Origin: a virus
Length of the DNA stretch: 64,000 nucleotides
Strand: one strand, 5' to 3'
Virus record (IMG/VR): IMGVR_UViG_3300021197_001243
Span: 1-64,000 of that record
Shown here: positions 2,445 to 40,270 of the stretch, in pieces
How positions within the stretch are numbered: position 1 is the stretch's first letter
How the letters are laid out: every line of letters starts with the position of its first letter
Translations under genes and position numbers: made by a program
Notes under the pieces: generated by a model
What the model saw: only the letters and a program-made list of their open reading frames with translations
Told to the model about the DNA's origin: nothing
Databases searched by the model: none

Positions 2445-2619
2445 GAAAGAGATAGTGAGTAGGATAAATACAGAGTTTAACAATAAAGTGCGTAAAAGAA
2501 CCATATGGTCACGCATTGAATTGTTTGAATTGCATAGAAATGTGTGTGATATGTATTTAAATCCTATTAAAAGAAAGAATCTTGCTATGGTTAGGGACAA
2601 ATATGATGATGTAAATTAA
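2437..2619 (+). CDS. hypothetical protein
   Basis: 60-aa ORF overlapping the MazG-like gene end and coupled by TAATG to PolA. Confidence 0.65.
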   Translation: MNEKEIVSRINTEFNNKVRKRTIWSRIELFELHRNVCDMYLNPIKRKNLAMVRDKYDDVN

Positions 2620-4508: not shown

Positions 4509-4518
4509 ACTATTTAAC

Positions 4519-4794
4519 ATGGACTTTGAAACAAAAATAGAAAATGCAAGTGTAAGTATTGATTTTGATTACCAACCTGAAGAAGCTATGGTTATGTACT
4601 ACCCAGATGGTAGTGGTTATCCAGGGTGTCCAGCAAGTGTTGATAACATTAATGTAGTATGGAAAACTCAAAAGTTTAACTCTAAAACACGTAAGCAAGA
4701 AGATGTAGAGGTTGATATTACTGAGCTGCTTAACGAATTAGGACATGACCTTGAAGAACTGTGTTGGGATTATTTAAATAATGGAGACTTTTAA
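4519..4794 (+). CDS. hypothetical phage protein
   Basis: 91-aa acidic ORF with YYPDGSGYPGCP motif. Confidence 0.75.
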   Translation: MDFETKIENASVSIDFDYQPEEAMVMYYPDGSGYPGCPASVDNINVVWKTQKFNSKTRKQEDVEVDITELLNELGHDLEELCWDYLNNGDF

Positions 4795-5992: not shown

Positions 5993-6144
5993 GCAACGCT
6001 GAACTCGTACGTATAGGTAAGGATAACTTAACTAAAATTACTCCTATAACTCCAGAGTATAGGTTTGAAGAAGAGAAGAGTGAAGGTGTGGAGATACTAG
6101 AAAAGATTATAATAATGTCAGATAACATATCTGATATTACATAA
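5911..6144 (+). CDS. hypothetical protein
   Basis: 77-aa ORF filling the gap after the helicase; overlaps it by 82 bp. Confidence 0.45.
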   Translation: MAEKLTQNNGSKQYSLDVARGTTRKRISNAELVRIGKDNLTKITPITPEYRFEEEKSEGVEILEKIIIMSDNISDIT

Positions 6145-20327: not shown

Positions 20328-23300
20328 TTATTCTATTTGTCCTACAAATTTTATAAATTGGTTATAGCCTGGTACAAAAGTTTCTGCTACTTCTCTTGGA
20401 AAACCTTTTGTCCTTGCATCTAACTCTTCACCTTTAAATGTTGCAGAGGTACTTCTATATCCTGCTTTTACTAGAGCAAATGCATCATCTACTAGACCTA
20501 AAGTAGGGATTGCAGATTGATTTAATTTTTGCAATTCTAAAGGATTCATTGCAAAAGTAGTTTCAAGTATAACTTTTGCTAGTATGTCAGATAATAATCG
20601 TGTACCATAGTTGGTATTTTTTAAAGGCTCATCATCATCATTAAATCCTCTTGCTCCGAACAGCATTCCTATAAGAGATAGTGTAAGAACTATTCGTGCC
20701 TCTGCAAGAAATGACCTTGTAGATGCCTCTCTCATTTCAATATATGATTCAAGATCTACTTGAAGCATATCAGGATCAGTAGTATTTGCTTTTACAAAAT
20801 CTAATTCTAATTGTATTGCAGCTCTTTGCCTTTTATATCTTTCTTCTTTTGCCTCACTCCATTTATTTTTAGATTCAAGTCTTGCTTTTCTTTCGGCACT
20901 TACAGTATAAGATCGTAAAAAGGCAAGATGTGAAAATGCATTATAAACTCTTTCTAAAGCTGCTGCTGTTGATGCTAAGTATCCGTTAGTTTCATCTGTA
21001 GACTGCTTACCAAGAATAGCTCGCATTCCCCCAATAAATCTACCTTCTACAGGAGCATCTTCGATATAATCATATCGTCTTCCCCCATATCTTTTAAGTA
21101 CAAATGCAGGTGCCCACCATTTGAATGTACCTAGTAATCTAAAAGCTAATTCTGTGTGAGCTGCCACTATATTATCCTCTCCTTGCTCACCTTTTATTCC
21201 TCCTACTACCTTTTTTACTACCTGTCTAAACTGTGTAAATGCTTCATCAGGTAAAGCATCTAAATCTACTACAACCTCTCCGGTTTTCTTATCCACTGTA
21301 GATTTCTCTGAAACTATCTCTAGTATTGATTTTGATCCTTCAGGTAATTGATTTAGCCTTTTTACAAGACCATCTTTACCTAATCCATAGTTTTGCATCA
21401 TAGCTACAGCAACAGTTCTATCTATAGATCTATCTGTCATACCTAAAGGTTCATACATAAATGATGTATCAAGATTTCTTGTTAGCACAGTAGCATGCAT
21501 TCTTCTTCCTCTATGATACTCTCTACCTTGTGTATGCAAGTTAAAATAGTCTGTTATACCATAGTAAAAATCTCTATCCTTAGCAAACATTAGTAGAGAG
21601 TCTGATAGTTCTTTTGTTCCGTAATGAACTCCTCCCATACCTTCTACATATGTAAATAAACTACCTGCTATTTTAGTAGATATTGCAAGTTTTACAGGTA
21701 CAGATATCTTCATATAACTAAAAAGAGCGTTAAGCTTACTTACAAGCTTTTGCATACTTACATTACCTATAATCTTATCCTTACTACTATAAGAATGTCC
21801 GTACATATAGTAGTTAAAGAATTGGTCAAATAATTTAAGAGTATCTGGATCTAGACCTTCTTCATCTAATACAGGTTTACCTGATTCTCGTATTATTTCT
21901 GTTCCTCTTTTTGTAGATTTTGTTTTTAATTGCTGCCCTGCTAAATGTTTAGTATGTAATTGATGTCTTAAGAACAGCATTTCAGATTCTATCTTAGACT
22001 TTTCGATATAATTATAAATGCTTGCTCCCATCATATACATAGACCTAGACAAATCTCTTGATACAAGCTGAGAAGATTTATCTCCTTTTCTATTTTTAAG
22101 TGCATTTATAAAAGGTAACGGTACTTTTTGTATAGGATTACCCCCGCTTGTATCATCTTCATCTACTTTGACAGCAAATCCTCTTGACCACCAATCTTGT
22201 ATAAAATCTTTACTGAATATATCTTTTCCTCTTGTAAAATTTTCAATAAGAGTTTTTCTAACTGTAGGAATAGTATTGCCAGATAGATATACTCCATCCA
22301 TTTCTTCATTATACTCTCTAAGCTGCTCTTTCCAAGCATTAAAGTATGTTAAAAGAGCCTCATTCCCAGGCTGATTAAGTTTTTCAAAACTTTCACTCCA
22401 TACTTCTTTGGCATATTCAGGTTTTACTTCTAAGTACATCCAGTATTTAGGTGATGCCCAAGCAGAAGGGTTTCCTCCAAACACATTATAATTATCCTTA
22501 AAAGATTTTAGATACGCATTATAGGCTTTTCCTTTGTTAGGATATTCTCTTTTTAAGTACTCTATTCTTTTTTTAAGAGCTTTATTATAAGACTCTTTAG
22601 CCCCTTCTTTTATCTGGAATCTTTCTTTCATCCAGGCTACAGATTCTTTTTTTACTTCATCAGGTACACCTACTTTTTCTAGTACCTCTTCCCAAAACTC
22701 TTTTTTAAACATTGGGATAAGTTTTAACTCTTCTCCCGTATCCTCTATAAACATTTCATATACATCTACAAGAGACATATTTTTGCTTTCAGCATACAGT
22801 TGTAAAGACTCATCTAGGTTAAACCACTTTCTTCTAAGCTCTTCAACTCTACGAGCTATGATATCATGAGTAATATTTATTCTTCTTTTGCCTTCTTGGA
22901 ATATAGGATTCTCAATTTGATCCATAACTATAAACTTGTCCAAGAATCCAAGTCCTGCATAAGGTATTGTAGTATCTAATCTAGAGTTTACTAAACTTCT
23001 CCTAAGAAGTTCTTCCTCTATAATTTCAACTGCATCTTCTACAGACCTACTTAATTCTGCTATGTCATCGTAAACAGCAGTTTTTTCTTTTTTAGTTTTT
23101 AAAGATTTAGCCTTACGAACCATCACAGCGTTTATATCAGAAAACATTTGTAACAGATCTAAAGAATGCTGTAATTCATCAAAAGACATATAGTTCTCTG
23201 AATCTTCATCTGAAATAGATGCATAATCAGTAGCTTTATTTATAGTCTCATTTAGAGTTTCAAGCAGCTCTCCAAGATTTGATTCTACTACTAATGATTG

Positions 23301-25247
23301 TACAGCTCTGTACAGTACATCTTTTTCTCTACGGATTTTTGCCGAAGGCTTCATTTTGTTTAGCTCTGTAAGCCTATTGTATATTTCTGACAACTTTGCA
23401 TTTATTCTTTTGTCGTCAGTGTATTCTTTAGCTACAGATATATGCTGTAAGAACTTATTTTTAGATTTACCTATATTAAAGGTGTTTATACCTGTAGGTA
23501 TACCTGCCTTACTCCACGAAAAATCCATATGCCCAGGTATAATTCTAGACATCCTAATTTTACCTATACTATAGTTATCAGATAAAGTAGTAGCATAGAT
23601 TCCTAACTGTGAATCATAAGACTCTCTTTTACCTCCTCTAAAAGGATCAATAACTATTTTTTTTGAAGCTCCTGCACCTTCAGTAAACTTTTGCTTAGGA
23701 GCTATAAACTTAAAGTCATAAATTGCTACGGATCCATCAGAAAACAAAAACAATATATCTATAGTACCTGCAGTATCAGTTGCTTTATCATAAACTTGTA
23801 CCTCTGTAAATACTTCAAAGTCTTTATCTTTTGCTATAGTATCTTGAGTTTTACGTACCTGTGTTAAAAGCCGTTTCATTTCTCCACGAAACTCTTTAAA
23901 CATATTATCAGTAAGATCTGCTTTATACTTTACATCAGATTCAGTTAATTTAACTCTGCTATCTTCTAAATCTACAACAGAAGCTCCTTTCATTTTTGAT
24001 GCCTCATCCTCTACAAGAAATTGTCCTACATTATGAAGATTTGTACCTGCGTCTCTAGCAAAAGCTGATTTAGGATTTTTTTGCATACCTTTTACAGCTT
24101 CAAGACCCCCCATATTTCTCATAAAGCTTATAGTAGAATCGTCTGTAGCTCTTCGAGTAACCATTTTAGTTGTACCATCCTCTTGCTCAAGCATATATCT
24201 CGCTATAACTCCTTGATCGTCTTCAAATAACTCAAAGTTTTTTATTTTACCTTCAGCTAACTCTTTTGTAATATCTGTTTTTATAGAAAGCTTATTATGT
24301 GTACTTATAAGTTCTCCTTTAATAAGTTCTGCTGGTGTAGCTGTACCTAATGACCTGAATAAAGTATTGTTGCTAGTGTTATCTATAGCATCTTGGTATT
24401 TTGTAAGATCGTTATTGAACATTTTGTATGCAGCTTTGACATACGGATCCTCTAAATTGAACATGTTCTTTATAGCTTGCCATGCTCTTTTCCACCAACG
24501 ACTCTCTCTATCATTGATATTTTCATCAGTGGCTCTATTAACCATTACCTTTGCAATAGCTTCATCTATAATATCTTCTTCTGTATACTCTGATATAGCT
24601 GCTCTATATTTTGTAGATACCTCTGCATATTCAGGAGTAGTAAATATTCTAGAACGCATAGAATTATATAATGCACTCCCTGTATCTTTTAAAGCATTGA
24701 CATAAAAATGAGTTATTTCCTCTGTAAGCTCTGACTCATTACCTAAAGTAGCCACTATAGATTTATTTATAAGATCTGCTACAGCTACTCCTGCAATAAG
24801 ATTACCTTCATTGTCAGTTAAAGTCTTTGCAACTTTAAAAGATATTCCAAGCTGATTCATAATAAGCTTAAGACTGGCTTGTATGTTCCTTTCTGCTTCA
24901 GCTATTCTTTCTTGTACTATCTTTTCTTCTTTTTCCGGGGAAATATCTGCAAGCTCTTGAAACCTTTCTATTTGAGCCCCCCTAAATCTTACAAGTGTAT
25001 TTCGTACAGTGGTATCTCTAAAATAAGAGTTTCCTCGTATAGCTTTAACCTGAGAATCTTGTAAGTATACTACAGGCTCGGTCTGCATATCGTACGTAGT
25101 TTCTAATACGTCTTGAACACGGGCAGCTTCTTGATTAAACTTATATGCAGGCGCAGATAGTTGGTATAACCTCCTACTCTCGTTGTACTCCATAAGGCCT
25201 TTTTCGACCATATTATTTATTATGTTGGATTCTATACTACAACTCAT
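20328..25247 (-). CDS. large ejected virion cargo protein with degenerate zincin-like and PD-(D/E)XK nuclease domains
   Basis: 1639 aa; EEITHF...DEAIAK; GTNLH...TEVQV...AGTIDILF...IYDFKF...QLGIY (RecB-like nuclease); adjacent to the vRNAP as in crAss-like phages. Confidence 0.75.
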   Translation of the reverse strand: MSCSIESNIINNMVEKGLMEYNESRRLYQLSAPAYKFNQEAARVQDVLETTYDMQTEPVVYLQDSQVKAIRGNSYFRDTTVRNTLVRFRGAQIERFQELADISPEKEEKIVQERIAEAERNIQASLKLIMNQLGISFKVAKTLTDNEGNLIAGVAVADLINKSIVATLGNESELTEEITHFYVNALKDTGSALYNSMRSRIFTTPEYAEVSTKYRAAISEYTEEDIIDEAIAKVMVNRATDENINDRESRWWKRAWQAIKNMFNLEDPYVKAAYKMFNNDLTKYQDAIDNTSNNTLFRSLGTATPAELIKGELISTHNKLSIKTDITKELAEGKIKNFELFEDDQGVIARYMLEQEDGTTKMVTRRATDDSTISFMRNMGGLEAVKGMQKNPKSAFARDAGTNLHNVGQFLVEDEASKMKGASVVDLEDSRVKLTESDVKYKADLTDNMFKEFRGEMKRLLTQVRKTQDTIAKDKDFEVFTEVQVYDKATDTAGTIDILFLFSDGSVAIYDFKFIAPKQKFTEGAGASKKIVIDPFRGGKRESYDSQLGIYATTLSDNYSIGKIRMSRIIPGHMDFSWSKAGIPTGINTFNIGKSKNKFLQHISVAKEYTDDKRINAKLSEIYNRLTELNKMKPSAKIRREKDVLYRAVQSLVVESNLGELLETLNETINKATDYASISDEDSENYMSFDELQHSLDLLQMFSDINAVMVRKAKSLKTKKEKTAVYDDIAELSRSVEDAVEIIEEELLRRSLVNSRLDTTIPYAGLGFLDKFIVMDQIENPIFQEGKRRINITHDIIARRVEELRRKWFNLDESLQLYAESKNMSLVDVYEMFIEDTGEELKLIPMFKKEFWEEVLEKVGVPDEVKKESVAWMKERFQIKEGAKESYNKALKKRIEYLKREYPNKGKAYNAYLKSFKDNYNVFGGNPSAWASPKYWMYLEVKPEYAKEVWSESFEKLNQPGNEALLTYFNAWKEQLREYNEEMDGVYLSGNTIPTVRKTLIENFTRGKDIFSKDFIQDWWSRGFAVKVDEDDTSGGNPIQKVPLPFINALKNRKGDKSSQLVSRDLSRSMYMMGASIYNYIEKSKIESEMLFLRHQLHTKHLAGQQLKTKSTKRGTEIIRESGKPVLDEEGLDPDTLKLFDQFFNYYMYGHSYSSKDKIIGNVSMQKLVSKLNALFSYMKISVPVKLAISTKIAGSLFTYVEGMGGVHYGTKELSDSLLMFAKDRDFYYGITDYFNLHTQGREYHRGRRMHATVLTRNLDTSFMYEPLGMTDRSIDRTVAVAMMQNYGLGKDGLVKRLNQLPEGSKSILEIVSEKSTVDKKTGEVVVDLDALPDEAFTQFRQVVKKVVGGIKGEQGEDNIVAAHTELAFRLLGTFKWWAPAFVLKRYGGRRYDYIEDAPVEGRFIGGMRAILGKQSTDETNGYLASTAAALERVYNAFSHLAFLRSYTVSAERKARLESKNKWSEAKEERYKRQRAAIQLELDFVKANTTDPDMLQVDLESYIEMREASTRSFLAEARIVLTLSLIGMLFGARGFNDDDEPLKNTNYGTRLLSDILAKVILETTFAMNPLELQKLNQSAIPTLGLVDDAFALVKAGYRSTSATFKGEELDARTKGFPREVAETFVPGYNQFIKFVGQIE

Positions 25248-28200
25248 TATTTTTTACAAGTTAAAGGGTCTTTTTTACCTTTTTTAGGTTTACTCTGGGC
25301 TTTATTTTTATTTGCAATAGTGTAATTAGAATCTAAAAATATGGTATTTGTCATATTTACAAGATTGGTGCTTCCTCTTACATCTATTGGTACAGAAACT
25401 CCTTCTTCGCCCTCTACAGGATTTCTAAAGTAAACTACTTCAGCTTTAGGTCTAGCTGCACCCTGTGCTATAGCTTGTTTAAAAGCTTTTTTAGACTTAG
25501 AAGTTAACTGATATGTAATAGGGTGAGTCTTTTTACTATACGTATTATTTTTAACTGCAATAGTCCTATCATTACGGTTATTCTCTAAAAAGTATTCAAA
25601 GTAATCTTCTATCCTACCGTTAAATACCATACCTGCATTTCCAGTTGCATACCTATCTAAAGGATCTTCCATTAATCTCATAATTGAGTCTCCAGGTATT
25701 GTATTTAAGAATGAATTTCTTGCAGTTTCAATTCCGGTTTGAAGTAATGCTGTTTTAATAATATTTCTTGCTATATCAGGATATGTAGCTTCAACTTCTC
25801 TAAATCCATCATAGATACTATTCATTTCAAATGGAGTCATAGTTCTATTCAAAGGCTGAAGATAATCATTTGTCATGTCTTTACCCTCTCTAACAGGAGA
25901 TATAACAGGTATGAGGTTCTGTATGAATGGATTATCTTTTAAAGGATGCTTTACTTTAGGATTTTGAATCGTTTCTATCTGCATTGCCATAGAGTCTTCT
26001 CCAAGCATAAGAGATTCTATATTATCTCCTAAATCTATTTCTTGATTTGAATCTTCTCTATATACAGGAATATTCTGCATTATAAATGATATAAATCCAT
26101 TTTCATACTTATTCAAAATTTTTGCTCTTTCATCTACAGAAAGACCTCTAATATTAGGATTTGTATATATTTTTTGTATCCGTTTAAAGTCCACCATAAA
26201 TGCAGCCTGCTGATCTTCTGTCAAAAATAGATCATTAAAAATAGTCTGCATGTCATAGTTGTACATAGACAATGATCTCATAAATGTATCAGGTGTTCCT
26301 TTTTTAGCTATAAAATCTTCAAATCCTATTATATCTTGTTTAGAACCTAGTATATGTATTTGATCTGGCTCAAATGCTATAATTTCACCTAAGCCTTCTG
26401 TATCTATTATACCATCGTTACCTAAGTCTGAAAATCTTTTAGTATCACCAGGTTTATTTATGGTCTCACTTAATCCAGGAGCATCGGTAATAGGATTTTT
26501 TAAATTTAAAACAACAGCCATTTTCACTTCCCCTACATGTGCATAGGCTGCCTTATCGGAAGTGAAATAAAAACCATCACTTATTAATTTAGTTTTATCA
26601 AATTCTTCAAATTTTTCTTTTGTGTTATGATAAACAATATCTTTTACTTTACTCTCAGGGAATATAGTGTTTAGATAAGCATTGTACTGTTCTTCTGTAC
26701 CTATCTCTGCTAGCTCAGGATTGGATTCAAATACTTCAGAGACACCTTCAGTAACCTCAGTTGCAGGTTGAGTAGTATTTATACTTGTTATTTTCTCAGC
26801 ATTTTTAAACAGCCCTGTACTTAATGCACTTTTATACATATCTAAGATAACTCTAAGATGATTTCTGCTCTTAGGTATCTTAGTATCAAATGCTTGAGCC
26901 GTAACTATATTACCAAGAGTTTCACCTAGTTTGCTGTACATAAACATATCAGATAGTACTTGAAGCTGTACATACTTTTCTTCTTCAGTCATATCCTCTA
27001 CATCTTTTGCCACCATAGGTTTAAGCATATCTGCACTTAAAAGGTACGTATCAGATTCTGTAGGAGAAGTTTTAAAGTTTGTAGCATATAGCGTTCTAAG
27101 ATCTTTAGATATTTCTTCATCATATATACTTTCTTCCATTACCTTACTTGTTCTACTCCTACCTATTTCAAGCATTTGTAGGTAGTCTTTAACAATAGGC
27201 TGGTTAGCAAACATTGCTTGTGTACGTATATCTACTCCTACTCGAGTAAGGAACATCCACATATTTGCATTGTCCGGAGTAATATTCAAAATGTGAAGTA
27301 TAGGATTGTTCACAACATCTACAGAAGCGTTTGTAAACTGACTTATAGCATCAGATATACGCATAGTCCCTTCAACATTAGTCACTCTCCCTAAAGAATG
27401 TTCCATAGCTAATGGATCAAACCCTGTAAAGTTTATAGCTATCTCTTTAATAGCTCCTGTAGGAAGTTTAAGCTCATTATCAGTATCTAAAGTAAGTCCT
27501 GCTATTTGCCCTTTAATATGGTGCGTAGAACCAAGTGCTGCTATACCTACAAGTACTTTACCTTTATTAAATGCTTCAGCTACCTCTATAAGATTAGGTA
27601 TGCTAGTATCTGTATGGTAATCTGTAATAGTTGCTAAATCAGGTAGTCTTTTATCACCTTTATAAATACCTTCTACAAGTTCATTAGTATTAGGATCTAC
27701 ACCTCCATTTAGCTCTAAAGCAATTGCCTCTAAGTCATTTGTATGCACAGGTTGTAGCCAGGTATCATATCTTTCCTCATTATTTATTTGCAATAACGTA
27801 ATCATATCTTCCATTACAGCATTCTGCATAGCCCCCTTACTCTGTGAGTTGTACTTAGTGGCTTTTGGATTTTCAGCTTGCCATTCTTCAAAAGATTTAG
27901 AGAATACTTCTTGTTTAGCTATAATTTTTTTAATTCTAGCATATGATTTACGTATCTCTTTAGGATTAGAGTCAAAATACTGTGCTAGCTTATCCGCCTG
28001 TTCATTAGATATATCTTCTGCAGATTCTTTAAATAGCTCATCTGCTGTTTTTTCTCCAAAAATCTTACTTACAAAAGAGTCTGTAAGCATTTTTACAAGC
28101 TGATCTCTTTCTGCTACAGAATCCATTATGTCTTCCATCTCTTCAAGAGCCTTCATATTTCTATTCAGGATACGTTGCTCTGCATTATACCACTCTTCTA

Positions 28201-31200
28201 AAGAATCATAAAACTTTTCTTTTACAAGTTTACCTCCACGCATTCTATATGCTGGGAAATACAATACAAGTTTATCTATATCAAAGTCAGATCCTGACTT
28301 AGTAACCATTTCAGATGGAATTACCACTGTAGGACCTGCAGTTCTAGGTAAAAATCCTTTCACTTTAATAGCTTCAATAGAGTGAATACCGTCTGTAGGT
28401 ATACGTATACCTATAAGTTCAAGTAGGTCAAGTTCTCCTACTTTAGTGTCTCCATCATATATACCATCTTTTTTAATTATCATATCCTTACCCACCATCT
28501 CTTTAAAGTGATGTGGTAGATATACTTGCATATATTTATCTCCTTCAGTGTAAGCTTCAAGCTCATCAAGTCTCACTCCAGGTATACCATCTATTTTTGA
28601 TGTTTCAAATCCTAGCGAAGACTGTTGTACATACATGTCCCCTTTAAATCTTTGACGGATAACTCTCTTACCCGCAAGACTCCATAGTACTCCTTCAAGC
28701 CTTCCTTTATTAGACACTGCATCAAAGTACACAGGTTTTTTCTCTTCATTACGCTCTTCAAGATAATCTAAAGACGCAAGGAGTTGTTTAGGCATTTGAC
28801 GTCTTAAACTCTCATTTTTAATAGCAGCTATAAACTTGCTGAAGTCATTGTTTATCACTTCATAGTTCATAGTATTATCCTCATTCCTACCTTTTTCTTT
28901 TATACCAAACTCATCTAAAAGTTTAGTGTAAGCTTGCTCTGTAAGGCTGTTAAGAACAGAATTATATCGTTCAATAGTAGGACTAAGAGCTTCAAATTCT
29001 GGACGAATAGCTCCGTTTTGAAATAAATCAGATAGTACTTGTACTCTTGCTTGTGTAGCAATCGGAGATGTACCTTTAAATTTAGAAGGCACTTCTAACT
29101 GTGTCCCCATAAATCTGTAGTCTATATTAACCACGTTAGAAGAATCTAAATTATTCTTTAACATGTCAGAGTTAAGTATAACTCCATCCTCCATAAGTTC
29201 TAACTGACTATCTTCTCCAGGTACACCAATCTTAAATGCAGATGGAAGTATAAGTCCCCCTAAAGTTTCTGAAGTAAGAAATTTGTACATATTTTCTATA
29301 CCTGTAAATGTCTTATTCCCCATTTTTCCTAAACCAGGATATATAGGTGCAGCAGACATTTTAAAGAAACCTGGTACTTGAGTATTTATATTGTCATTAG
29401 CGAGATATCCAAAATACTGGAATTTAAGAGGTGGGAATTTACCCATAACTTCATCAGTTATAGTATCTCCTCTATACATTACATTTTCATAGACTTTTTC
29501 TTGTGCAGGGCTCCAAGTATTTCCTCTTATAGCCATTTCTCTGTATGCAGGAAGAGTAAGTAAAAGTGTACCATCCGCTTTTTCAGCTGCTTTAGCATAA
29601 GCTGCAGCTACTTTTGGAGATAAAGAATCTATATACTCCTGTAAAAATGGAGTTATACGTGAAGGTTCTTTTACTACAACTAATTGTTCAAATCCATCTG
29701 CTACTTTTCCGTCAAATAGTGTAAATTCTGCATCTGTTTTATTGTTTTTTACTCTAGAGTTTTCAGAAGCGTTAAGCCATTCATTTAAGCCTTCATCTAC
29801 ATTAAATATGTCTTTTACACCTACAGCACCTTTTACTCTTTTAAATAAAGCTTTATAAAATGCTGGATCTCCAAAAAACATTTTGAACATCTCATTTTTA
29901 TAAATAGTCTGACGTACAACAACTGTTTCTACAAACTCTTGAAGTTTTTCTTTTGATACATTATCAGGGAGTGTTTCTCCAAATCTAGCTCTATTTAGCC
30001 CATATAATTGATAGCTGTCATCTTCATTCTTAGAAACCACTTTAAGTTTATCCATAAACTCTATAAGTTCTTCTACATCTTCTTTTAAAACTTTTTCAAT
30101 AGACTCAAAAAATGCATTGCTGTTAAGAGTTATAAATTCTTGTATATCATCTCTAGTGGCCTCTGCATTATTCATCATATTATTGAGGTGAGATGTCATG
30201 TCAGGATTAAGTTTTGACATAAGCTTTTTAAACATCCTCAACTTATTGATACGATCAGTGTAATCTTTTACATTAATTTGCTCTTCAGTCGCAGTGTTAG
30301 TAGCCACTATTTCATCTACTAAATATCCAAGTAGTGCATCTTTTGCTGACCGGATATCCTTAAATTCCTTTATAGGGAATCTTATAGAGAAATCTGTAGC
30401 TATATCTGCCGCTTTAAGTACAGGCATTACACCTTCCATTATAGACTCTATATAGCTTGTAAGATTATCTGTAGGGCGCAGCTTAGAAGTTTTTACTCCT
30501 ACTTGACCTGCACCCTCTATTGCAAGACCCTCACGTATCATTACATCCATTTTAACATTTGGATCGTCTCTAAGTGCTTTTAGAGTGAGGGAATTAAATG
30601 CATAAGGGTTTTTGTTAGGATTCTCTTTTGTAGGGAAATAATCTTTAAGCTCATCTATAGGGGTATTTGCTATAGTGCTCATTTCATTGTTCATAGAAAT
30701 GCTATAAACAAGTTTTCCTTCAGGATTTTGATGCTGGAACTCATACTCTATATTAGTAGTATCAAGTTCAAGCTTTGCAAGATGATTCATCCTTGTAACA
30801 CTAAGAGATTCACTCCTGTCAAATAGTGCTGTAAGAGATGTAGTACCTGCTATTATATCTCCAAATACAAAGTCAATACCATTATCTATAGCATTTCTAT
30901 ATGTAGTGTCCGTACCAGGTAACATCATTTCATTTCTAGAATCTATCTGTAAGATTCCTTCTAACTTTTCTCTATTAGAGAATACTATTCCTAAATGTTC
31001 AAGGGCATCAAGTTTGTACCCATAATCTCTTGAGTTTTCTACAGCATTAAGTACTCCTTTTATAGTAAGTTTTCTATTTCCAAATTTGGATTTTACATCT
31101 TTATCAAATACAATATTGCCTCTCTCATCAAATTGCACATGTTTAGATGTCCGTGTCTTACCTCGTAGCGATGCATTCCATCTTGCACGTATACCTCTAA

Positions 31201-34200
31201 GATTTCTTTCTAGGTTAGGGTCTATGTTATAAATTTTACCTGTCTCTTGCAGTATAGTATACTGTGTGTCATACATTGTTTTTGCAAACTGATTTCTAAA
31301 CGCTGTTTGCAATAATGCTTCTTGAAAAGACGTAGGCATTACATAAGGATCCTCCCCTAATCTCTCTAGTACATCTTTAGCCCAAGGATACTCTTCTTCA
31401 AGGTCTATTAATGTATCTAACTGGTCTTGAAAATTTAGTTTACCCTGCAGTTTTGTTTGTAGAGTTTTTAGTACAGATTTAAGCTCGTATGCACCTCTTA
31501 GTCCTGTTGAATTACGTTCTCCGGTTCTGTTAGGAATTGTTCCAAGTATAATTTTAATAACTCCTTTTGCAGTGTCTGTAGGAGACATTTCTAATTGATC
31601 TGCAATATCTTGGAACATTTTACTGCTTACTTCATCTTCATCTCTAGTATCTTCTAACTCTAAGTCAAGTCCTAGCTGTTTCATAAACTGCTGATGAATC
31701 ATAGTAGCATCATATCTGTTTTCTGTTCCCAGATCCCAAATTCTACCTTGTATTTCTTTTGAACCTAAAGCACTACTATAAAGAGCTTGATTAGCCTTAA
31801 GTACTTGATTATATGCAGCAGTACCTTCTTTCAACTCACTAAGTCTCTCTGCGTAATCGTCATACATTAATGCCCATGCATCTCTGTATGCTTGTGCTAA
31901 TGCTGAACTTTTTACAGGTGTCATATCTAGAAAATCTGCAAATTCTAAATTTACCTCTCTACCTTCTTCTACTTCGTAAGTTACATTTTGTATAGCCTCT
32001 GCTAAATATGAGGTAAGAGTGGAGTTAAGATCTGCAGTAAATACAGCACTTTGACCATTTAAAATCTGTGTAGCTGCCATCATAGGGCTACCTACATTCT
32101 TATTTTCAAGGTTTCTTTGTGCATTTTTAAACCCTCCTTCTTCAATCTTAGCAAAAAGCCCCTCTATACCTTTTATAGTGGGATCTATTTCAAAAGCTTT
32201 ATCAAGTTTAAATACAGTTCTAAACGTATCTCTGATAAAATCAAATAGTTTTTGGAAAATAGTTCTTTGCTCTGGAGTTACAGTGTCTTGTCCTATTACA
32301 TATTTACCTTTTGACAATACATATCTCCTGAACTCTTCTGCTAACCATTCTTCTGCCTCTTTATCTGTAAACTCTGAAAGGAGTTTTGATACAGGCTTAT
32401 AAGAACGATCTTGTTCTCCTTTAGCTAGCTCTTGGTATGGTACTGCTTTACCTTTTGTACGTCGTACAATATTGTAAAGTTTTTGTCTATCTCTTGGAGA
32501 CAACATGTGCAGAGATACATTATGAAATCCTTCATGGTATAGTGCTCCTCCTGGTGCAAGATCCGATACAAGTATTTTACCAAAATCTTTAAGTTGAGCA
32601 TATCCTTCTCCACTCATACCAGAAATCATTCCTAATACAGGAATAACCTCTGTAATAAGCATACCCTGTAATCTTGCAAGTTCTTCCCCAAATGTTTCCT
32701 GTATATACTTATCAGATGGTAATGTGTAAGAGCTTGCTAAGAATGGTAAATCTTCTTGATCAGTAGATGGACGCTTTGTAGTAGTTGGTGTTGTTGTAGT
32801 ATCTGGCTCAGTATCATCTTCTTTGTATTTCTCTTCAAAAACTTGCGATTGCTCTTTAGAAAGATCCCCATCCATATATCTATCTTGGATTCTTTCTTTT
32901 AAAGCTTGCGGTTCATCTGGATCTTCAAGTATCTCTATAAGCTCTTCTCCAGACATCCGGTTTATAGCCATATCTACATACTTTAAATCAGCTGGGGGCT
33001 CGTATGTAGGCTTTTCTTCAGGCTTTTTATTAGGATCAAGATCAGTTAGTTCAGTGATAGGTGCTCCAGTAGGAGAAAGTTCAGGAGACTCATTAGGATT
33101 TGTAGAAGGACGCGTTACTCCTGCTTTTTCTAAAGTTTCATTTACAGTATCTCTAATAACTCTACCTGTTCTTGTAGCTCTTTGTACAGCTTTACCTCTA
33201 AAACTCCTTACATATTTAAGAGATTTTCTTTGCTTTTTACTATTGTTGAACATTGCATACCCACCATGCCATCTTGGAGCATCGAGTATTTCAGAATCAG
33301 AATTTGAAGATATTGGAGTTGCTCTTGTTAATAATGGAGATTGTCCTTCATCTCTATCTTTTAAAAGATATTCATTATAATTCTTCCATGTTTTACTGTT
33401 ATCTTCATCTAGAGTAAGGTCATCGTTTAGAATTACCTGTAGGTATCCTTCCTTTTTACCATTTGTAATACTACTCTTACTTATATTGTGGTATTTAGTA
33501 GTTAAAAACTTTTTGAAAGAATTATATACTTCATCTTCTACACCGGCTTCAAAGTTTTCTAACCCAATTTCTTGACTTTGATCTCCGAATATAAATGTTC
33601 CTTTACGGTGAATTAATTGAAATCTAGGGTCATCTTTTTTAGACTTTTTACCCCGCATATAGATTATATCATCTAAAGCTTTTTTAAGAGATATCTTTTC
33701 ACCTTCAAATTCAAATTCAAATTCTTTTGCAGCTTCATATGCTTTTTCCCAACTTTTAGTCCCTTCTTGAGCATCATAACTTTCCTTACGTACAGTTATA
33801 AGTTTTTGAAGTAATCGGAGTACATTTTCTACTTCATTAGCTTCAAACTCTCTCCCTATCATAGGTATAGCTAGTTGACGTTTCTTGTCAAACGCCCATA
33901 CAAGACCTGATCTTGTACGCACAGGCATAGGTATATCTTTAAGAGTTATAGTTTCATCTATAGTTTTAGAGGTACCTATATATAACCCTACGTCAGAGTA
34001 TTGATTTTTACTATGTAGTTTCCCAGAATTTTGTGTGGCCTCATCTTCAAGGACTATTTTCCCATTAGATTTACCTGTAATATTATATAAGTATACTTCG
34101 TCAGATTCTAAAGTTTCTTTTCTCCAGGTTTCATGAGCTTCACTAATGTCATCTTTTTCAGACTGTTTTAAATCTTTATCACTTCTAAACCTTTCGTCTC

Positions 34201-37200
34201 CGTTAGCCCTCTTTAATTTAGAGGTCATAGCAGATGTAAATACAGGGTTATTTTCGTCGTCTGTTACAAATTTATGGACATTCTCATATCTTTTTTTCTT
34301 AGCGTTCCAGGCTTGGATTTTAACTGCTACAAGTTTTATATCATTCTCGTCAAAGAACATATCTTTTGTAAGCCCCAACTTTTGCAGGTCTTCAGGGATA
34401 TTATCTCTAGTTACTGCTGCAAGTGAATAGTTATAATAAGTTTTTCCTTTGCTTAGAGTAGGACCTACATCAGTAGTATGCAGCCAATTAAACCATCTTA
34501 ACTGAGATTCTGCTATAAGGAACTTTTCTTGCTCTTCGTCTGTTCTATCATCTTCATCTATAACTACAAGATTTCTATAAGTTTGAAGTGCACCGTCGTA
34601 CACATCTTTATTTTCATCAGTTACATGGCGACCAGTAGTTCTATTAAATCCTGGATACGATATATCCGACTTAGCTAATGGTGCAGTATCAAGCTCAAGA
34701 TTATAGGCATCTTCTACAGGGAATGTATAGTTTGCAGAAGGCCTGTTAGGATCCGCATCTGTACCTTTTTTGATTTTAGTATTCTGAATTAAGGTAAATG
34801 CAACTAAGTTTGTAGATGCATCCTGAAATTGTTTTAAAGTCTCTACAAAGGGTGCTATTCCATCTAAGGAATTTATATCTACAGGTAGTAATTCTTTTAA
34901 TCTATTTATACTCTGCTCTGTAAGAATAATTTCTGATGCAAGAAACTCTACATTATCTTGTTCTTCAAGAGTAAGTTTATTTTTCTTTTTAAAATTAGCT
35001 CTATGCTGATTTAAAAGATCTTCAAGTATACTTTTGTAGTCATTTAATTGTACAAGTTCATCTGTAATTTCTTGTATACTCTTTTCAATAATGCCTACTT
35101 GAGATTGCTTTTCTTCTTTTAGCTTAACCATATCTCTTAAAAATCTTAGAGTAAGATCGTTTGAAATGGATTTTTTAGAATCTATTTCTTTTAAGAGTCC
35201 TTCTGTTTTACCGTACATTTCAAGACTGTACGTATTAAGGTTAGGTTGATTTACTTCAAACTCATCTATAACAGATAAGATATTGTATAGATTATCTCTA
35301 TCTACATTAAGATCTTTTAAAAGGCTTTCTCCTATACGGATAGTTTCCTCTATGTCTGCTATCTTTTTATTTGCATCTTTTACTGTTAGGAATCTGCCAT
35401 TTTTTCCTCTGATACGCTTACCAGCTTCAAGTTTCTCTACATCTTGTACAAGATCTGCAAGAAGATCCTTTATTTCTTGTTTAAGATCAAGTATTCTTTT
35501 TTCAAGATTTACAACTTCACGTTCAGATGTTTTACGTGCTTCTTGAAGTTTATCTTTAAACTCTTGTACTTTTCTAGCGTCCTCTTCATCTTTTCTTTTA
35601 CGAGCTTTCTTTTCTTCCTCTGTAACCTCTGTATCAAGAGCATTTATTTTATCGATAATATTCTGCGTTACTTGTGGATTGTAATAAGGATCCATAAGCT
35701 TTTTATACATCTCCCCGGCAGACTGTCTCCTTGCTCTTAATTTTCTAAGATCTGCAAGTAATCCATATACCTCTTTTTCATTCTTCGCAAAACCTTCAGG
35801 ATCAGACTTTTTCCAAGGCTCTATAATTTTTTCATACTCCTCTTGTGATAGTATATTTTCATCACCTACCTCTTTAATTATAGCGTTTAGCTCTACTTTA
35901 GCATCGTATAAAGTACGAAGAGTTGCGGCTTGTGCTGGAGATCTATCTGTTATTTTTTCTAGTGCGTCAATAGTATTTAAAACAGTTACAAGTTGACCTC
36001 TAACGTCTGCCTCCCCTGTAAAAGCCGCTATATCTATTTGACGAATATTACCTTCTGCATCTTGGTACTCTATTACAGGCATTGTTTCAATATCAGTAAG
36101 ATCTTCAGTTGTAGTCTTACCTTCTTTGTCACTTATCCTGTATCCTGGAGCTTTTGCTAGTGTACCTCCTATAAGTGGAGCTAATTTTTCTATTATACTT
36201 CCCTCTCGCTCTTCTGTGTTATTCATTGTAGATAAAGCATGAATAAGCATTTTTCTATTAAAAGCTTTTGTACCAGGCCTATCGTATCCTACATATTTTT
36301 CTTGCTCTGTATATCTAAGATTAGAATCTACTTTATTTACATTTTCATAAACTTGTTTAGCTCTTTCTTTTACAGCATTTACTACATGAGATTTTCTTTT
36401 AGTAACTTCTTCACTTGTAAGATTTTCAGCTGTGTATCCTCCCCACTCTATAAACTCTTCTTCAGACATATTGAGAATCTCATCGGTTTGATTTTCAATA
36501 TCTTGATACTGACCTGTATGTATTTTAGCCATTACATAGTCAAAGAAGTTATCATACTCTAGATCTTTAGCTAAAGCCATGTCTCCAGCCTCCATAGCTT
36601 GATCCATAAGTTTACTTCTCTTGGCTACATTCATAAAAAATGCAGCATTAGTAGAAAGAGTTTTTAGAAGTCCTGGGTTCTCCTCTATAGCTTTGTCTAA
36701 ATAGTCAAGAGCCTCTCTTCTAACCTTTGTATTTTTATAAGCTTGTATTGCAGTAGTATTTACACCTGGAAGTCCTAAACTTCCCATTATAGCTCCAAGA
36801 ACTACCTCTGTAAGACCTTCATCTGTAAAATAAGACTCTGCTCCTGCCTCTTTAAATGAGCTTACACTAGCACCTACAAGCTCTCTAAGACTGTTATCAT
36901 CTCTTATCCCAGAAAGAAGTGCATAATCTGCAGCAGCTCTTTGCATTACACCCTGTCCACCTTCTTCTATTACACCTTCATAAAAACCTCTTCCTGCTAC
37001 ATATCCCACTCCTTTAGCAACATCTGTTGCTGTTTTACCTATTTTTCCCTCTACAAGTTTTCTTGCTCTAGTACCTACTCTTGCAATTCCATTATCTAAA
37101 GATTGTACTCCAGGTATATTACGAATAAGGTTGTGTTTACCTAGACCATAAAGTTTAGGGACCATAAGTATGTTACTCATACCTACTAAAGCTACGTTAC

Positions 37201-38242: not shown

Positions 38243-40270
38243 TTAAAAGGTCGTGGTTCCTTTCGGTTTTGTACCACCAAATAAAAGTCCTAATTCTTCT
38301 CCTCTGGCTGCAGAGTTATCTAAAATACCTTGAACTACTGCTCCAAGAGTTTCAGGTCGCTGTACAGCCTTATATACTTGGTTTGTCCTAGAATTTTTAT
38401 ACTCTATACGAACATAAGATTCAATATTTCCATGAGAAGGATTTCTTCTTACTTTATATGTGTAATCTATATGTGTAACACCATTAGGCATTTTTCCATC
38501 AGTAATAGGATCTCCTGTTTTTGTAGGTTTAGGATAATTTATAGTTTTTGAAGCATTAGGTTTACCTTGTGCAATAAGATCGGATACAGCCCCTAGTCTT
38601 TTAAACTCTGCTAGAGGTTTAGATTTGTCTCCTACAATAAGATTAAATACGTCCCCATCACCAGACGTATATGTAATCTCCATTCCTCCTGCTAAAGGAC
38701 CTCTTGCAGTTAATCCATTTATTTGAACTGTAGCCTCTGTATCTCCTCCTTGAAGGGCGGTTATAATTTCCTTCTGCCAATCCTCATCTAAATCCCAAAA
38801 TTTACCATTAAATGGATTCCAAGTATCGTTTCTTTCGTCAGCAATTTGATCTCCCCATTCATTTAATGTTAATGGAGTATTAGTGGGATTATCTATATCT
38901 ATAACTTGTAAACTAGGAGAGTTACCTAATACTTTTTTCATAGACTCTATTCCTTCTATTCTAGGAGCATATACAGTACCTATTTGTACTGCAGGATTTT
39001 GTACAATTCCTTCCCAAAGTTCTTCAGAGTACTCTCTATCTGTTTGACCAGGTAGTCTAGGTACTACATTTGCATACTCCTCTCTAAGATATTGAAGTTT
39101 ACCTTCTGTATTTCCTCTAATATTTAAAAGGTCCTTTCCTTCTGCAATTTGCTTTCTTACTCGTTTTGTAGATTCTTCAAGAGTAGATGGTCGAGTCTTA
39201 CCTCCCCAAGGATCTTTTTGTTGGCCTGGTATAATAGAAATTTTACTGCCATCAGGATTAAAATGCTCATCAAAATCAAGATTTTCTGTCTCTGGATCTA
39301 TATCAACAGTTTGTCTAGATTCTACTGGAGTACTTGTTGGAGTTTCTTGATCTGCTAAAGCTTTCATATAAGGGCTTTGCATATATTGAAGCTTAGATCC
39401 TCTTTGAGGTGCAGCTGCTGAGATTAAATCTTGAAATAGTACTTGCTGTGCTTCTTGTGCATCATACAAGGTTCCTGTAGCATCATTAACTGAAAGTTGT
39501 TGTAATGCTCTCATTTTTTGTAGACCTTCTGCACTATCCATATACAAAGGTAATACAGCCTCTGCAACTTTTCTTATTTTATTTCCTGATACTGCAGATC
39601 CACTTTGCAACATGAACATTGCTTGTTCTACAGGTAAGTTAAGATTAGCTGCTACTTGCTGTAAAAGAATAGGATCATCTGCAATACCTTGCATTAGTTG
39701 CCGGGCTTTTTCTTCTGCAGGGAGTTTATTTTCAGATAAAGGTTGATATACACCTTGAGTTTCAGTGACATGTGTATCAGTTACATGCTCAGTTATAACT
39801 TCTCCTGTTTTAGGATCTCTCATAGCAAGTCCTGTTACTGGATCTATAACAGGTTTTTCTCCAAAATCGTAAGATTGTAGCCCATTAGCTCTACGCTGCG
39901 ATATAACTTCTAATTCTTTTTGTCGATTTTGCCAAGACTCTACAGCGTTAAGTACCTTTTTATCTGTCATAAAATCTGTTACAGAATCAGATACAGCCAT
40001 AGATCCAAACTCGTATGCTCCAGAATCTACAACATTTGACATAGTATTTCCTACTCTCCCTCCAAGATCTTGTACAGTATAGCCATCTTTTTTTAAAGTT
40101 TGGACAGACCCCATAGCTCTTTGTAGATTATCATACTCTGCTTTATTAGTAGTATATCTATTTGCTAAGGTTTCAGCAGTTTCTTTACGACCAAGATCTA
40201 CAAACATAGATTCATACTCAGGAAATTGTATTCCTCCGTATTGATATTTCAGCTTCTCTTTGTAATCCAT
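38243..40270 (-). CDS. internal virion (cargo) protein
   Basis: 675 aa, no Cys seen, N-terminal KYQYGG; lies between cargo 1 and the vRNAP. Confidence 0.7.
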   Translation of the reverse strand: MDYKEKLKYQYGGIQFPEYESMFVDLGRKETAETLANRYTTNKAEYDNLQRAMGSVQTLKKDGYTVQDLGGRVGNTMSNVVDSGAYEFGSMAVSDSVTDFMTDKKVLNAVESWQNRQKELEVISQRRANGLQSYDFGEKPVIDPVTGLAMRDPKTGEVITEHVTDTHVTETQGVYQPLSENKLPAEEKARQLMQGIADDPILLQQVAANLNLPVEQAMFMLQSGSAVSGNKIRKVAEAVLPLYMDSAEGLQKMRALQQLSVNDATGTLYDAQEAQQVLFQDLISAAAPQRGSKLQYMQSPYMKALADQETPTSTPVESRQTVDIDPETENLDFDEHFNPDGSKISIIPGQQKDPWGGKTRPSTLEESTKRVRKQIAEGKDLLNIRGNTEGKLQYLREEYANVVPRLPGQTDREYSEELWEGIVQNPAVQIGTVYAPRIEGIESMKKVLGNSPSLQVIDIDNPTNTPLTLNEWGDQIADERNDTWNPFNGKFWDLDEDWQKEIITALQGGDTEATVQINGLTARGPLAGGMEITYTSGDGDVFNLIVGDKSKPLAEFKRLGAVSDLIAQGKPNASKTINYPKPTKTGDPITDGKMPNGVTHIDYTYKVRRNPSHGNIESYVRIEYKNSRTNQVYKAVQRPETLGAVVQGILDNSAARGEELGLLFGGTKPKGTTTF

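What the first reader, a model, noticed from the sequence alone, without database searches (positions are those of the whole stretch)
25239..25258. Only two cysteines in ~7400 aa of ejected cargo, face to face at the RNAP/next-protein junction: a possible disulfide-linked ejection chain
Seen: reading the translations by eye, the 4324-aa RNAP polyprotein has one Cys, third from the end (DPLTCKK*). The 1639-aa protein whose ATG overlaps that stop (TAATG) has one Cys, at residue 3 (MSCS). The 675-aa and 782-aa cargo proteins show none, while tail proteins are Cys-rich. Known: N4 virion RNAP lacks Cys, attributed to its passage through the oxidising periplasm. Inference: Cys is purged everywhere except this pair, which may form an intermolecular disulfide (or a shared metal site). 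That would join two co-translated proteins tail-to-head into a ~6000-aa thread that is ejected in order and uncoupled in the reducing cytoplasm.
Basis: partly seen in the sequence, partly recalled or inferred. Interest (0 to 1): 0.85.

Follow-up and report, generated by a model that had tools for sequence, protein, structure and literature searches.

The report
Terminal cysteine pair links phage polymerase proteins
Two giant proteins that this crAss-like phage probably packs into its particle, one carrying its RNA polymerase, contain no cysteine except one at each of the two ends that face each other, a pattern that relatives keep wherever the genes are separate and that most likely marks an end-to-end disulfide bond, still untested.

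Summary
On the minus strand, the 4324-aa protein has one Cys (residue 4322 of 4324), the overlapping 1639-aa protein has one (residue 3), and the 675- and 782-aa proteins have none: 2 Cys in 7420 aa, against about 102 expected.

The pair is not chance.
- It is the only invariant column in the N-terminal alignment of the 1639-aa family.
- In 18 crassvirus genomes, 20 of 24 annotated boundaries inside the polymerase block carry a C-terminal and an N-terminal Cys.
- None of the 36 outer ends of the block does.
- The pair is absent where the pieces are fused. Here the crAss001 gp47- and gp50-like parts are fused, and no Cys lies between them.

The cultured phages phi14:2 and crAss001 show the same rule. 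An unrelated cyanophage, A4, has the same sole-Cys pair, and cryo-EM shows it as a disulfide (PMC12002296).

My best reading is a head-to-tail interchain disulfide that makes one covalent chain of about 5963 residues in the virion. The bond itself, ordered ejection and reductive release are all untested.

This scan has already reported the same pattern on other crAss-like DNA. I found no paper that states the rule.

The parts
25247..38221 (-). 4324-aa virion RNA polymerase fusion protein. The N-terminal part is like crAss001 gp47 / phi14:2 g067; the C-terminal part is like crAss001 gp50 / phi14:2 g066 (RNAP). Its single Cys is residue 4322.
   Evidence: blastp: residues 79-688 match gp47 (E 2e-22); residues 3154-3341 match gp50 (E 3e-21). 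blastp: residues 88-555 match g067 (E 7e-10); residues 2706-3343 match g066 (E 3e-22). tblastn hits to annotated crassvirus RNAP genes. Cys count.
25256..25258 (-). Codon of Cys4322, third residue from the C-terminus (..DPLTCKK*).
   Evidence: Column C348 is one of only 3 invariant columns in A3 (15 sequences, identities to the window sequence 12-73%). All 8 near-full-length orthologues P0018-P0025 have exactly one Cys, 2-3 residues from the end.
25250..25333 (-). Lys-rich C-terminal tail of 28 residues that carries Cys4322; predicted flexible.
   Evidence: AlphaFold2 model of the last 350 aa: mean pLDDT 75.2, pTM 0.74, and residues 323-350 below pLDDT 50.
20328..25247 (-). 1639-aa protein homologous to crAss001 gp49 (RNAP-associated virion protein). 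Its single Cys is residue 3. Its ATG overlaps the upstream stop (TAATG).
   Evidence: A family HMM hits crAss001 gp49 at E 3.5e-20 and cr108_1 22608 at E 5.5e-104. Cys count. 12 of 16 homologues have a sole Cys at residue 3 or 4; the other 4 were called from the internal Met.
25239..25241 (-). Codon of Cys3 (MSCSIE..).
   Evidence: C3 is the only invariant column in A2 (23 sequences, N-terminal 420 aa, identities to the window sequence 11-81%). The model places it in a short coil just before helix 5-15; the first 60 residues have pLDDT 77-90.
28274..28288 (-). DFDID (residues 3312-3316), the DFDxD catalytic motif of crassvirus virion RNAPs.
   Evidence: Motif found. It lies inside the segment aligned to gp50 and g066. 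The DFDxD motif is named in the abstract of preprint 10.1101/2020.03.07.982082.
38243..40270 (-). 675-aa Cys-free protein at the position of crAss001 cargo protein gp46.
   Evidence: 0 Cys. Assigned by synteny with crAss001 gp44-gp45-gp46-gp47. No family hit.
40275..42623 (-). 782-aa Cys-free protein with a LysM domain, at the position of crAss001 cargo protein gp45.
   Evidence: 0 Cys. LysM PF01476 at E 2.6e-9. Endolysin and transglycosylase PHROG hits.
42620..48094 (-). 1824-aa virion structural protein (crAss001 gp44-like) with ordinary Cys content (19 Cys). It bounds the Cys-free block.
   Evidence: phrog_15100 at E 3e-42. Weak blastp hit to gp44 at E 1e-4. Cys count.

Best explanation
The polymerase block of this crAss-like phage is made as two proteins. 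One is a 4324-aa fusion of the gp47-like and gp50-like (catalytic) parts. The other is a 1639-aa gp49-like protein.

All cysteines have been removed from both proteins except Cys4322, on a flexible basic C-terminal tail, and Cys3 of the next protein. I propose that these two thiols form one head-to-tail interchain disulfide once the proteins are packed in the particle and leave the reducing cytoplasm. The block then exists in the virion as one covalent, unbranched chain of 5963 residues.

Shown by sequence: the purge, the invariance of the two Cys, their strict co-occurrence at gene breaks, and their absence at fusions and at the outer ends of the block.

Shown elsewhere by structure: the same sole-Cys pair is a disulfide in phage A4.

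Inferred:
(i) the bond forms here;
(ii) it keeps the polymerase parts together in 1:1 ratio during packaging and delivery;
(iii) the Cys sit at the extreme ends because only an end-to-end link leaves a linear polymer that can pass the portal and tail channel partly unfolded, one protein drawing the next;
(iv) cytoplasmic reductants may then separate the parts.

The purge of all other Cys would prevent wrong crosslinks.
For: 1. Depletion: 2 Cys in 7420 aa against 101.8 expected, and 2 in-frame against 126 and 418 out-of-frame TGY codons.

2. Conservation: C3 is the only invariant column among 23 N-termini. C4322 is one of 3 invariant columns among 15 C-termini.

3. W1639-family loci: an N-terminus could be read in 34 of 54 loci. 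32 of those 34 have exactly one Cys, at residues 3-5; the other 2 abut a contig end. In all 21 loci with an upstream ORF ending within 250 nt, the visible part of that ORF (246-3333 aa) has exactly one Cys, 0-3 residues from its end.

4. Co-occurrence: among 54 distinct junctions of adjacent Cys-poor large ORFs, 31 have both Cys, 22 have neither, 1 has the C side only and 0 have the N side only (nominal Fisher P 3e-14). In 150 ordinary ORFs, 6.7% have a Cys in the first 10 residues and 11.3% in the last 10.

5. Fusion test: across 18 genomes the block is split in three ways: 47|50|49, 47|50+49 and 47+50|49. 20 of 24 annotated boundaries carry the pair. 0 of 18 first N-termini and 0 of 18 last C-termini carry a Cys. 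One Cys-less 'boundary' (cr108_1 606|607) is a group I intron, so it is not a protein end.

6. Cultured phages:
   - phi14:2: g067 has its Cys as the last residue; g066 has Cys3 and Cys-1; g065 has Cys3; there are no other Cys in 5398 aa.
   - crAss001: gp47 C-2; gp50 N5 and C-8; gp49 N5.

7. Precedent: in A-4L, gp27 has a sole Cys at 1715 of 1717 and gp26 a sole Cys at 5. Cryo-EM shows them as a disulfide (PMC12002296).

8. Disulfides do occur in crAss001 virions, between tail hub and ring proteins (PMC10172136).

9. Breadth: 120 giant phage proteins sharing only a shuffled module of about 160 aa hold 73 internal Cys in 436,551 aa. 64 of them have a Cys in the first 10 residues and 81 in the last 10.
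Against: - No biochemical or structural observation of the bond exists for this phage or any crassvirus. The crAss001 atlas did not resolve these termini, and the word 'cystein' does not occur in its main text.
- The conservation counts are not phylogenetically independent.
- Exceptions:
  - cr273_1: the nearest C-side Cys is 49 residues from the end.
  - crAss002: by its annotated start, the N-side Cys is at residue 35, after an internal Met33.
  - IAS virus gp055|gp056: an unclear boundary with ambiguous bases.
  - L064: an N-terminal Cys with no C-terminal Cys in the ORF directly upstream.
  - Carjivirus gp47: a C-terminal Cys with no facing partner.
- Gut crassviruses live in a low-redox habitat, where spontaneous oxidation is less certain.
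- Schitoviridae and T7 purge Cys from ejected proteins without keeping any pair. The purge alone therefore does not imply a link.
- I could not run a complex prediction.
Confidence: 0.6

Rival explanations
1. The disulfide exists but acts only as a static lock of an ordered internal core on the portal, as described for phage A4. It plays no part in threading or in the order of ejection.
For: The only structure with such a bond (PMC12002296) shows it stabilising a C-terminal helix of gp27 in a cleft of gp26, within a pentameric ring above the portal.
Against: A static lock could sit anywhere in an interface. Here the Cys are always 0-8 residues from a chain end, in families with unrelated termini. 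In the window, the C-side Cys lies on a tail predicted to be disordered. Both points fit a topological constraint better than a folded interface.
Confidence: 0.2
2. The facing Cys do not bond to each other. Instead they share a metal ion or make only a non-covalent terminal contact.
For: Suoliviridae junctions read H-C-K-G | C-P-N, which offers a His as a possible third ligand.
Against: Most junctions, including the window's (LTCKK | MSCS) and those of phi14:2, offer only two thiols and no conserved His, Asp or further Cys nearby. The one solved case is a disulfide.
Confidence: 0.08
3. The terminal Cys make homotypic links (tail-to-tail dimers of the 4324-aa protein, head-to-head dimers of the 1639-aa protein), or they link to another virion component such as the portal or cargo protein 1.
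For: Some gp45-like cargo proteins carry an unpartnered terminal Cys: Carjivirus gp47, crAss002 gp30, the cr8_1 1182-aa protein and cr52_1 gp32. Sequence alone cannot tell which thiol meets which.
Against: Independent homotypic links would not need the strict both-or-neither pattern at junctions (31 both, 22 neither, 1 single). They would not explain the balanced counts in three-piece blocks (2 C-side and 2 N-side Cys in crAss001, cr128_1 and phi14:2). They would also not vanish exactly at fusions. The A4 bond is heterotypic and head-to-tail.
Confidence: 0.08
4. The pair is a by-product of nucleotide-level constraints at the gene overlap. Possible constraints are translational coupling, or a -1 frameshift on AAAAAAT that would fuse the two ORFs. 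Or the pair is plain chance.
For: The stop and start overlap (TAATG). A run of six A precedes the stop, and the downstream frame is the -1 frame.
Against: - In relatives the junction spacing ranges from -10 to +895 nt, and the C-terminal residues vary (CKK, CKT, CYTP, ETC, GCK, CRQQ, ECNS, PCP..). No slippery site is conserved.
- In the downstream frame a TAA lies 9 nt upstream of the ATG.
- crAss001 gp47 and gp50 are on opposite strands yet carry the Cys.
- The chance expectation for a junction is below 1%.
Confidence: 0.01

Closest known systems
Ejection proteins gp27 and gp26 of cyanopodophage A4 (Anabaena phage A-4L): Cys1715-Cys5 disulfide in the pre-ejectosome (PNAS 2025, PMC12002296; passages read)
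   Same: Two adjacent genes for large internal virion proteins. Each protein has exactly one Cys: residue 1715 of 1717, and residue 5 of 1114. Cryo-EM shows the two bonded head-to-tail.
   Different: No detectable sequence similarity to the window's proteins (blastp, E <= 0.01). Neither Foldseek search of my two terminal-domain models returned an A4 chain among its listed matches. The A4 proteins are not a polymerase. The paper reports one bond as a structural detail and states no general rule.
Virion RNA polymerase block of cultured crassviruses: phi14:2 g067-g066-g065 (g066 = PDB 6VR4) and crAss001 gp47-gp50-gp49
   Same: Homologous proteins. The DFDxD motif is present. The same Cys rule holds at every break. 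Foldseek's best match for the window protein's C-terminal 350 aa is 6vr4_A (E 0.0099, prob 0.97, TMq 0.34).
   Different: Those phages split the block into three proteins, with two junction pairs. Here the first two parts are fused and only one pair remains. The papers I could search do not mention the Cys: the main text of PMC10172136 has 0 occurrences of 'cystein', and the listing for preprint 10.1101/2020.03.07.982082 shows 0 occurrences of 'cysteine'. That preprint suggests that fused forms are 'likely cleaved'.
Cysteine suppression in ejected proteins of Schitoviridae (N4 gp50, DEV gp71-gp73) and T7 gp15/gp16
   Same: Near-total lack of Cys in proteins that leave the capsid through the tail. 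gp71 homologues have 0.00075% Cys against 0.865% in the proteome (PMC11445570). T7 gp15 and gp16 have 0 Cys.
   Different: Those systems keep no terminal pair. The N4-type polymerase is a single chain, so it has no junction to bridge.

Membership tests
Crassvirales virion RNA polymerase block (crAss001 gp47/gp50/gp49; phi14:2 g067/g066/g065) | Sequence homology of the catalytic part to gp50 / g066 | tested here: met
   blastp E 2.5e-21 to gp50 and E 2.75e-22 to g066. tblastn finds 84 phage records, many annotated as RNAP.
Crassvirales virion RNA polymerase block (crAss001 gp47/gp50/gp49; phi14:2 g067/g066/g065) | DFDxD catalytic motif | tested here: met
   DFDID at residues 3312-3316, inside the aligned segment. 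The motif is named in the preprint abstract.
Crassvirales virion RNA polymerase block (crAss001 gp47/gp50/gp49; phi14:2 g067/g066/g065) | Gene order gp44-like, two small cargo genes, then gp47-, gp50- and gp49-like parts | tested here: met
   The gp45- and gp46-like assignments rest on position alone.
Crassvirales virion RNA polymerase block (crAss001 gp47/gp50/gp49; phi14:2 g067/g066/g065) | Proteins present in the virion and delivered to the host | not testable with these tools
   Known for phi14:2 (MS/MS notes in the record) and for crAss001. Inferred here by homology.
Head-to-tail disulfide-linked ejection proteins (A4 gp27-gp26 type) | Upstream protein with a sole Cys within a few residues of its C-terminus | tested here: met
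   Cys4322 of 4324, and no other Cys.
Head-to-tail disulfide-linked ejection proteins (A4 gp27-gp26 type) | Next protein with a sole Cys within a few residues of its N-terminus | tested here: met
   Cys3 of 1639, and no other Cys. The Met1 start is supported by relatives.
Head-to-tail disulfide-linked ejection proteins (A4 gp27-gp26 type) | The two Cys are bonded in the virion | not testable with these tools
   This needs non-reducing gels, disulfide mapping or cryo-EM. No complex predictor was on hand.
Head-to-tail disulfide-linked ejection proteins (A4 gp27-gp26 type) | Homology to A4 gp27 / gp26 | tested here: not met
   No blastp hit at E <= 0.01 and no A4 chain among the listed Foldseek matches. 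This is an analogue, not a relative.
Cys-suppressed ejected phage proteins (Schitoviridae, T7) | Cys frequency far below that of the phage proteome | tested here: met
   0.027% (2 of 7420) against 1.37%.
Programmed -1 frameshift fusion | Conserved slippery site and an open -1 frame across the junction | tested here: not met
   TAA in the downstream frame 9 nt before the ATG. The junction sequence and spacing are not conserved.
Split intein / protein trans-splicing | Intein halves of tens of residues flanking the catalytic Cys | tested here: not met
   Only 2 residues follow Cys4322 and 2 precede Cys3. That intein halves are of this size is from my own knowledge.

The most novel reading that the evidence does not exclude
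In all crassviruses the virion polymerase block is delivered as one covalent thread of roughly 5,400-7,900 residues. Evolution freely exchanges peptide bonds and terminal disulfides at the module joints. The extreme-terminal position of the Cys is imposed by the need for an unbranched polymer that can be pulled through the tail. Reduction in the host cytoplasm acts as a redox switch that frees the subunits to assemble the active polymerase.
Probability: 0.3. Interest if true: 0.85.

Novelty: new variant of a known kind. Interest (0 to 1): 0.72.

Why it matters
How podophages move megadalton loads of protein through a narrow tail, in the right order and ratio, is an open question. [quoted passage not shown]

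A conserved end-to-end covalent link would give a concrete mechanism, and one that can be tested directly. Two cultured phages, phi14:2 and crAss001, carry the pattern, and a non-reducing gel would answer the first question.

The rule also has practical value for annotation.
- It marks true protein ends. It exposed a group I intron that is annotated as a gene break in cr108_1, and a probable wrong start in crAss002.
- It predicts which giant proteins of uncultured phages are injected cargo.

Tried and rejected
- **Frameshift fusion at AAAAAATAATG:** rejected. There is a stop in the -1 frame 9 nt before the ATG, and no conserved slippery site or spacing.
- **Split intein:** rejected because there is no room for intein halves.
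- **Start at Met13, which would remove Cys3:** rejected. Relatives lack Met13 but keep M-x-C, and the DNA upstream of the Met13-called homologues encodes MSCS.
- **Direct PDB sequence search with the 4324-aa protein:** gave only noise. Homology to the solved RNAP came from blastp against the phi14:2 record instead.
- **megablast of the junction region against phages:** found nothing.
- **PHROG and Pfam scans:** gave nothing for the 1639- and 675-aa proteins.
- **Fold of the N-terminal 420 aa:** mediocre (mean pLDDT 61), with no meaningful Foldseek match.
- **Thioredoxin in this phage record:** sought with PF00085 and not found.
- **Fully fused three-part proteins among the 120 giants:** not found with the family HMM. 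6 of the 120 hold a gp49-like part; 5 of these 6 have an N-terminal Cys and no C-terminal Cys, and 1 has no Cys at all.
- **Literature:** I found no statement of a terminal-Cys rule in searches. The journal version of the phi14:2 polymerase paper is not held.
Full report
**What is there**

The window holds the structural and cargo region of a crAss-like phage. It is part of a virus record of 83,756 bases, estimated 97% complete. Its nearest named relative is cr108_1, at only 22.8% identity.

On the minus strand the genes run as follows:
- major head protein (60388..61842) and other virion proteins;
- a gp44-like 1824-aa structural protein (42620..48094);
- a 782-aa LysM protein;
- a 675-aa protein;
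- a 4324-aa protein (25247..38221);
- a 1639-aa protein (20328..25247), whose ATG overlaps the preceding stop.

**Checking the observation**

- the 4324-aa protein has one Cys, at residue 4322;
- the 1639-aa protein has one Cys, at residue 3;
- the 675- and 782-aa proteins have none.

The stated coordinates 25239-25258 span exactly the two Cys codons.

The four genes hold 2 in-frame TGY codons, against 126 and 418 in their other two frames. The other 28 ORFs have 1.37% Cys. About 102 Cys were therefore expected, and Poisson P(<=2) is 3e-41.

**What the proteins are**

The 4324-aa protein is a fusion.
- Residues 79-688 and 1866-1970 align to crAss001 gp47. Residues 3154-3341 and 3554-3679 align to gp50.
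- Residues 88-555 align to phi14:2 g067. Residues 2706-3343 align to g066, the solved virion RNA polymerase (E 3e-22).
- DFDID at residue 3312 fits the DFDxD catalytic motif.
- A model of the last 350 aa (pLDDT 75, pTM 0.74) has 6vr4_A as its best, though weak, Foldseek match.

An HMM of the 1639-aa family hits crAss001 gp49 at E 3.5e-20.

**Is the pair conserved?**

The 1639-aa family:
- Of 16 homologues (28-100% identity), 12 have a single Cys at residue 3 or 4. The other 4 were called from an internal Met and have none.
- In DNA loci of the family, an N-terminus could be read in 34 of 54. Of these, 32 have exactly one Cys at residues 3-5, and 2 abut a contig end.
- In all 21 loci with an upstream ORF ending within 250 nt, the visible part of that ORF (up to 3333 aa) has exactly one Cys, 0-3 residues from its end.
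- In six more distant loci the partner ORF lies 376-895 nt upstream and again ends in a Cys.
- In the alignment of 23 N-termini, C3 is the only invariant column.
- In 15 C-termini, C4322 is one of three invariant columns.

The 4324-aa family: all 8 long orthologues have one Cys, 2-3 residues from the end.

**The fusion test**

In 18 crassvirus genomes the block is cut in three ways:
- 47|50|49 in crAss001, cr128_1, IAS virus and phi14:2;
- 47|50+49 in Carjivirus, crAss002, ctbg_1, cr8_1 and cr271_1;
- 47+50|49 in the window, cr55_1, cr1_1, cr130_1, cr118_1, cr52_1, cr273_1, cr109_1 and cr108_1.

Of 24 annotated boundaries, 20 carry a Cys within 10 residues on both sides. None of the 18 first N-termini and none of the 18 last C-termini carries one.

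The four exceptions are:
- cr108_1 606|607 has no Cys on either side. It is a group I intron (RF00028, 80 bits), so it is not a protein end.
- crAss002 has M-S-C at annotated residues 33-35, so the annotated start is probably wrong.
- IAS virus gp055|gp056 are overlapping CDSs with ambiguous bases.
- cr273_1 has its nearest C-side Cys 49 residues from the end.

Over all fetched loci there are 54 distinct junctions between adjacent Cys-poor large ORFs. They split into 31 with both Cys, 22 with neither, 1 with the C side only and 0 with the N side only. The nominal Fisher P is 3e-14, but the rows are not phylogenetically independent. I dropped ORFs with more than 0.1% internal Cys or shorter than 350 aa.

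Ordinary ORFs carry a Cys in the first 10 residues in 10 of 150 cases, and in the last 10 in 17 of 150.

**Breadth**

A search with residues 3725-4324 returned 120 giant proteins. They share only a module of about 160 aa that sits at varied positions. Pfam gives this module a sub-threshold ART-PolyVal match.

These 120 proteins hold 73 internal Cys in 436,551 aa (0.017%). 64 have a Cys in the first 10 residues (mode: position 3) and 81 in the last 10. 105 of the 120 have at least one of the two.

**Comparison with what is known**

- Cys suppression in ejected proteins is in print for Schitoviridae, where it is ascribed to passage through the periplasm (PMC11445570, passages read). T7 gp15 and gp16 also lack Cys. 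Neither system keeps a pair.
- A note from this scan led me to the cyanopodophage A4 paper (PMC12002296). It reports a disulfide between Cys1715 of gp27 and Cys5 of gp26 in the pre-ejectosome (passages read).
- I checked the A-4L record myself. gp27 (1717 aa) and gp26 (1114 aa) are adjacent, and each has exactly that one Cys. They are not similar in sequence to the window's proteins.
- The crAss001 atlas does not use the word 'cystein' in its main text, but it shows disulfides elsewhere in the virion.
- The phi14:2 polymerase preprint has no occurrence of 'cysteine' by the search listing. It supposes that fused forms are cleaved.
- Seven literature searches found no statement of the rule. Supplements were closed.

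**Mechanism**

The comparative pattern shows that a terminal Cys pair stands wherever a peptide bond between modules is missing. The simplest chemistry, and the one seen in A4, is a disulfide.

The C-side Cys sits on a disordered basic tail of 28 residues. The N-side Cys sits just ahead of a confidently predicted small N-terminal domain.

That the Cys always lie 0-8 residues from a chain end, in families whose termini are unrelated, fits a need for an unbranched chain that can pass the tail partly unfolded. The crAss001 authors propose partial unfolding for cargo.

Formation of the bond, ordered ejection and reductive release are all inferences.

**Verdict**

The same pattern has been reported repeatedly by this scan on other crAss-like DNA. 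This window is therefore one more instance: the two-piece, 47+50|49 form of a rule that appears to be unpublished for crassviruses and that has a single structural precedent in an unrelated phage.

Noticed in passing
window 26435-26638 (-), residues 3862-3929 of the 4324-aa protein: A sub-threshold ART-PolyVal (PF18760) match: 23.4 bits against a cut-off of 31.2. It lies inside a module of about 160 aa (residues ~3816-3976) that recurs at varied positions in 120 giant phage proteins. It may be an ADP-ribosyltransferase-like domain co-delivered with the polymerase.
   Followed up: partly
L001 16866-17184 (cr108_1, MT774385): The 290-nt gap between the annotated CDSs gp_22606 and gp_22607 is a group I intron (Rfam RF00028, 80 bits, E 1e-20). 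The two 'genes' are therefore exons of one polymerase gene.
   Followed up: yes
L005 16086-16190 (crAss002 gp33): The annotated start is probably 32 codons too far upstream. Residues 33-35 read M-S-C, like the starts of the orthologues in Carjivirus, ctbg_1, ctcc615 and cr271_1.
   Followed up: partly
L004 (Carjivirus gp47), L005 (crAss002 gp30), L010 (cr8_1, 2454-6002), L014 (cr52_1 gp32): Some gp45-like small cargo proteins of gut crassviruses carry one terminal Cys (C-1, C-7, N5 and N9 respectively) with no facing partner in the neighbouring gene. What they link to is unknown.
   Followed up: no
L064 about 5610-5790: A short ORF of about 57 aa containing a C-x-x-C sits in the gap between two Cys-free cargo genes. 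This is the one place where an N-terminal Cys lacks a C-terminal partner in the ORF directly upstream.
   Followed up: no
L036, L042, L064, L065, L066, L069: In distant relatives a gap of 376-895 nt separates the gene that ends in Cys from the gp49-like gene that starts with Cys. I did not examine what these gaps contain.
   Followed up: no
window 56274-56768 (-) and 53185-56274 (-): A 164-aa protein has 12 Cys (7.3%) and ends in SCGCSC. The adjacent 1029-aa protein has 37 Cys (3.6%). The larger has no PHROG match; I did not scan the smaller. They contrast sharply with the Cys-free block.
   Followed up: no
L075 (T7) 1229-1819: T7 gp14 has a single Cys at residue 2, while gp15 and gp16 have none. 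No facing C-terminal Cys was seen.
   Followed up: no
window 40275-42623 (-): The Cys-free 782-aa protein at the cargo protein 1 position carries a LysM domain (residues 453-500) and weak endolysin and transglycosylase PHROG hits. This suggests it binds or cuts peptidoglycan during entry.
   Followed up: partly
G000 (whole record): No thioredoxin (PF00085) match in this phage record. Several gut crassvirus records annotate a thioredoxin near the polymerase block (cr108_1, Carjivirus, cr8_1, ctcc615, cr128_1).
   Followed up: partly
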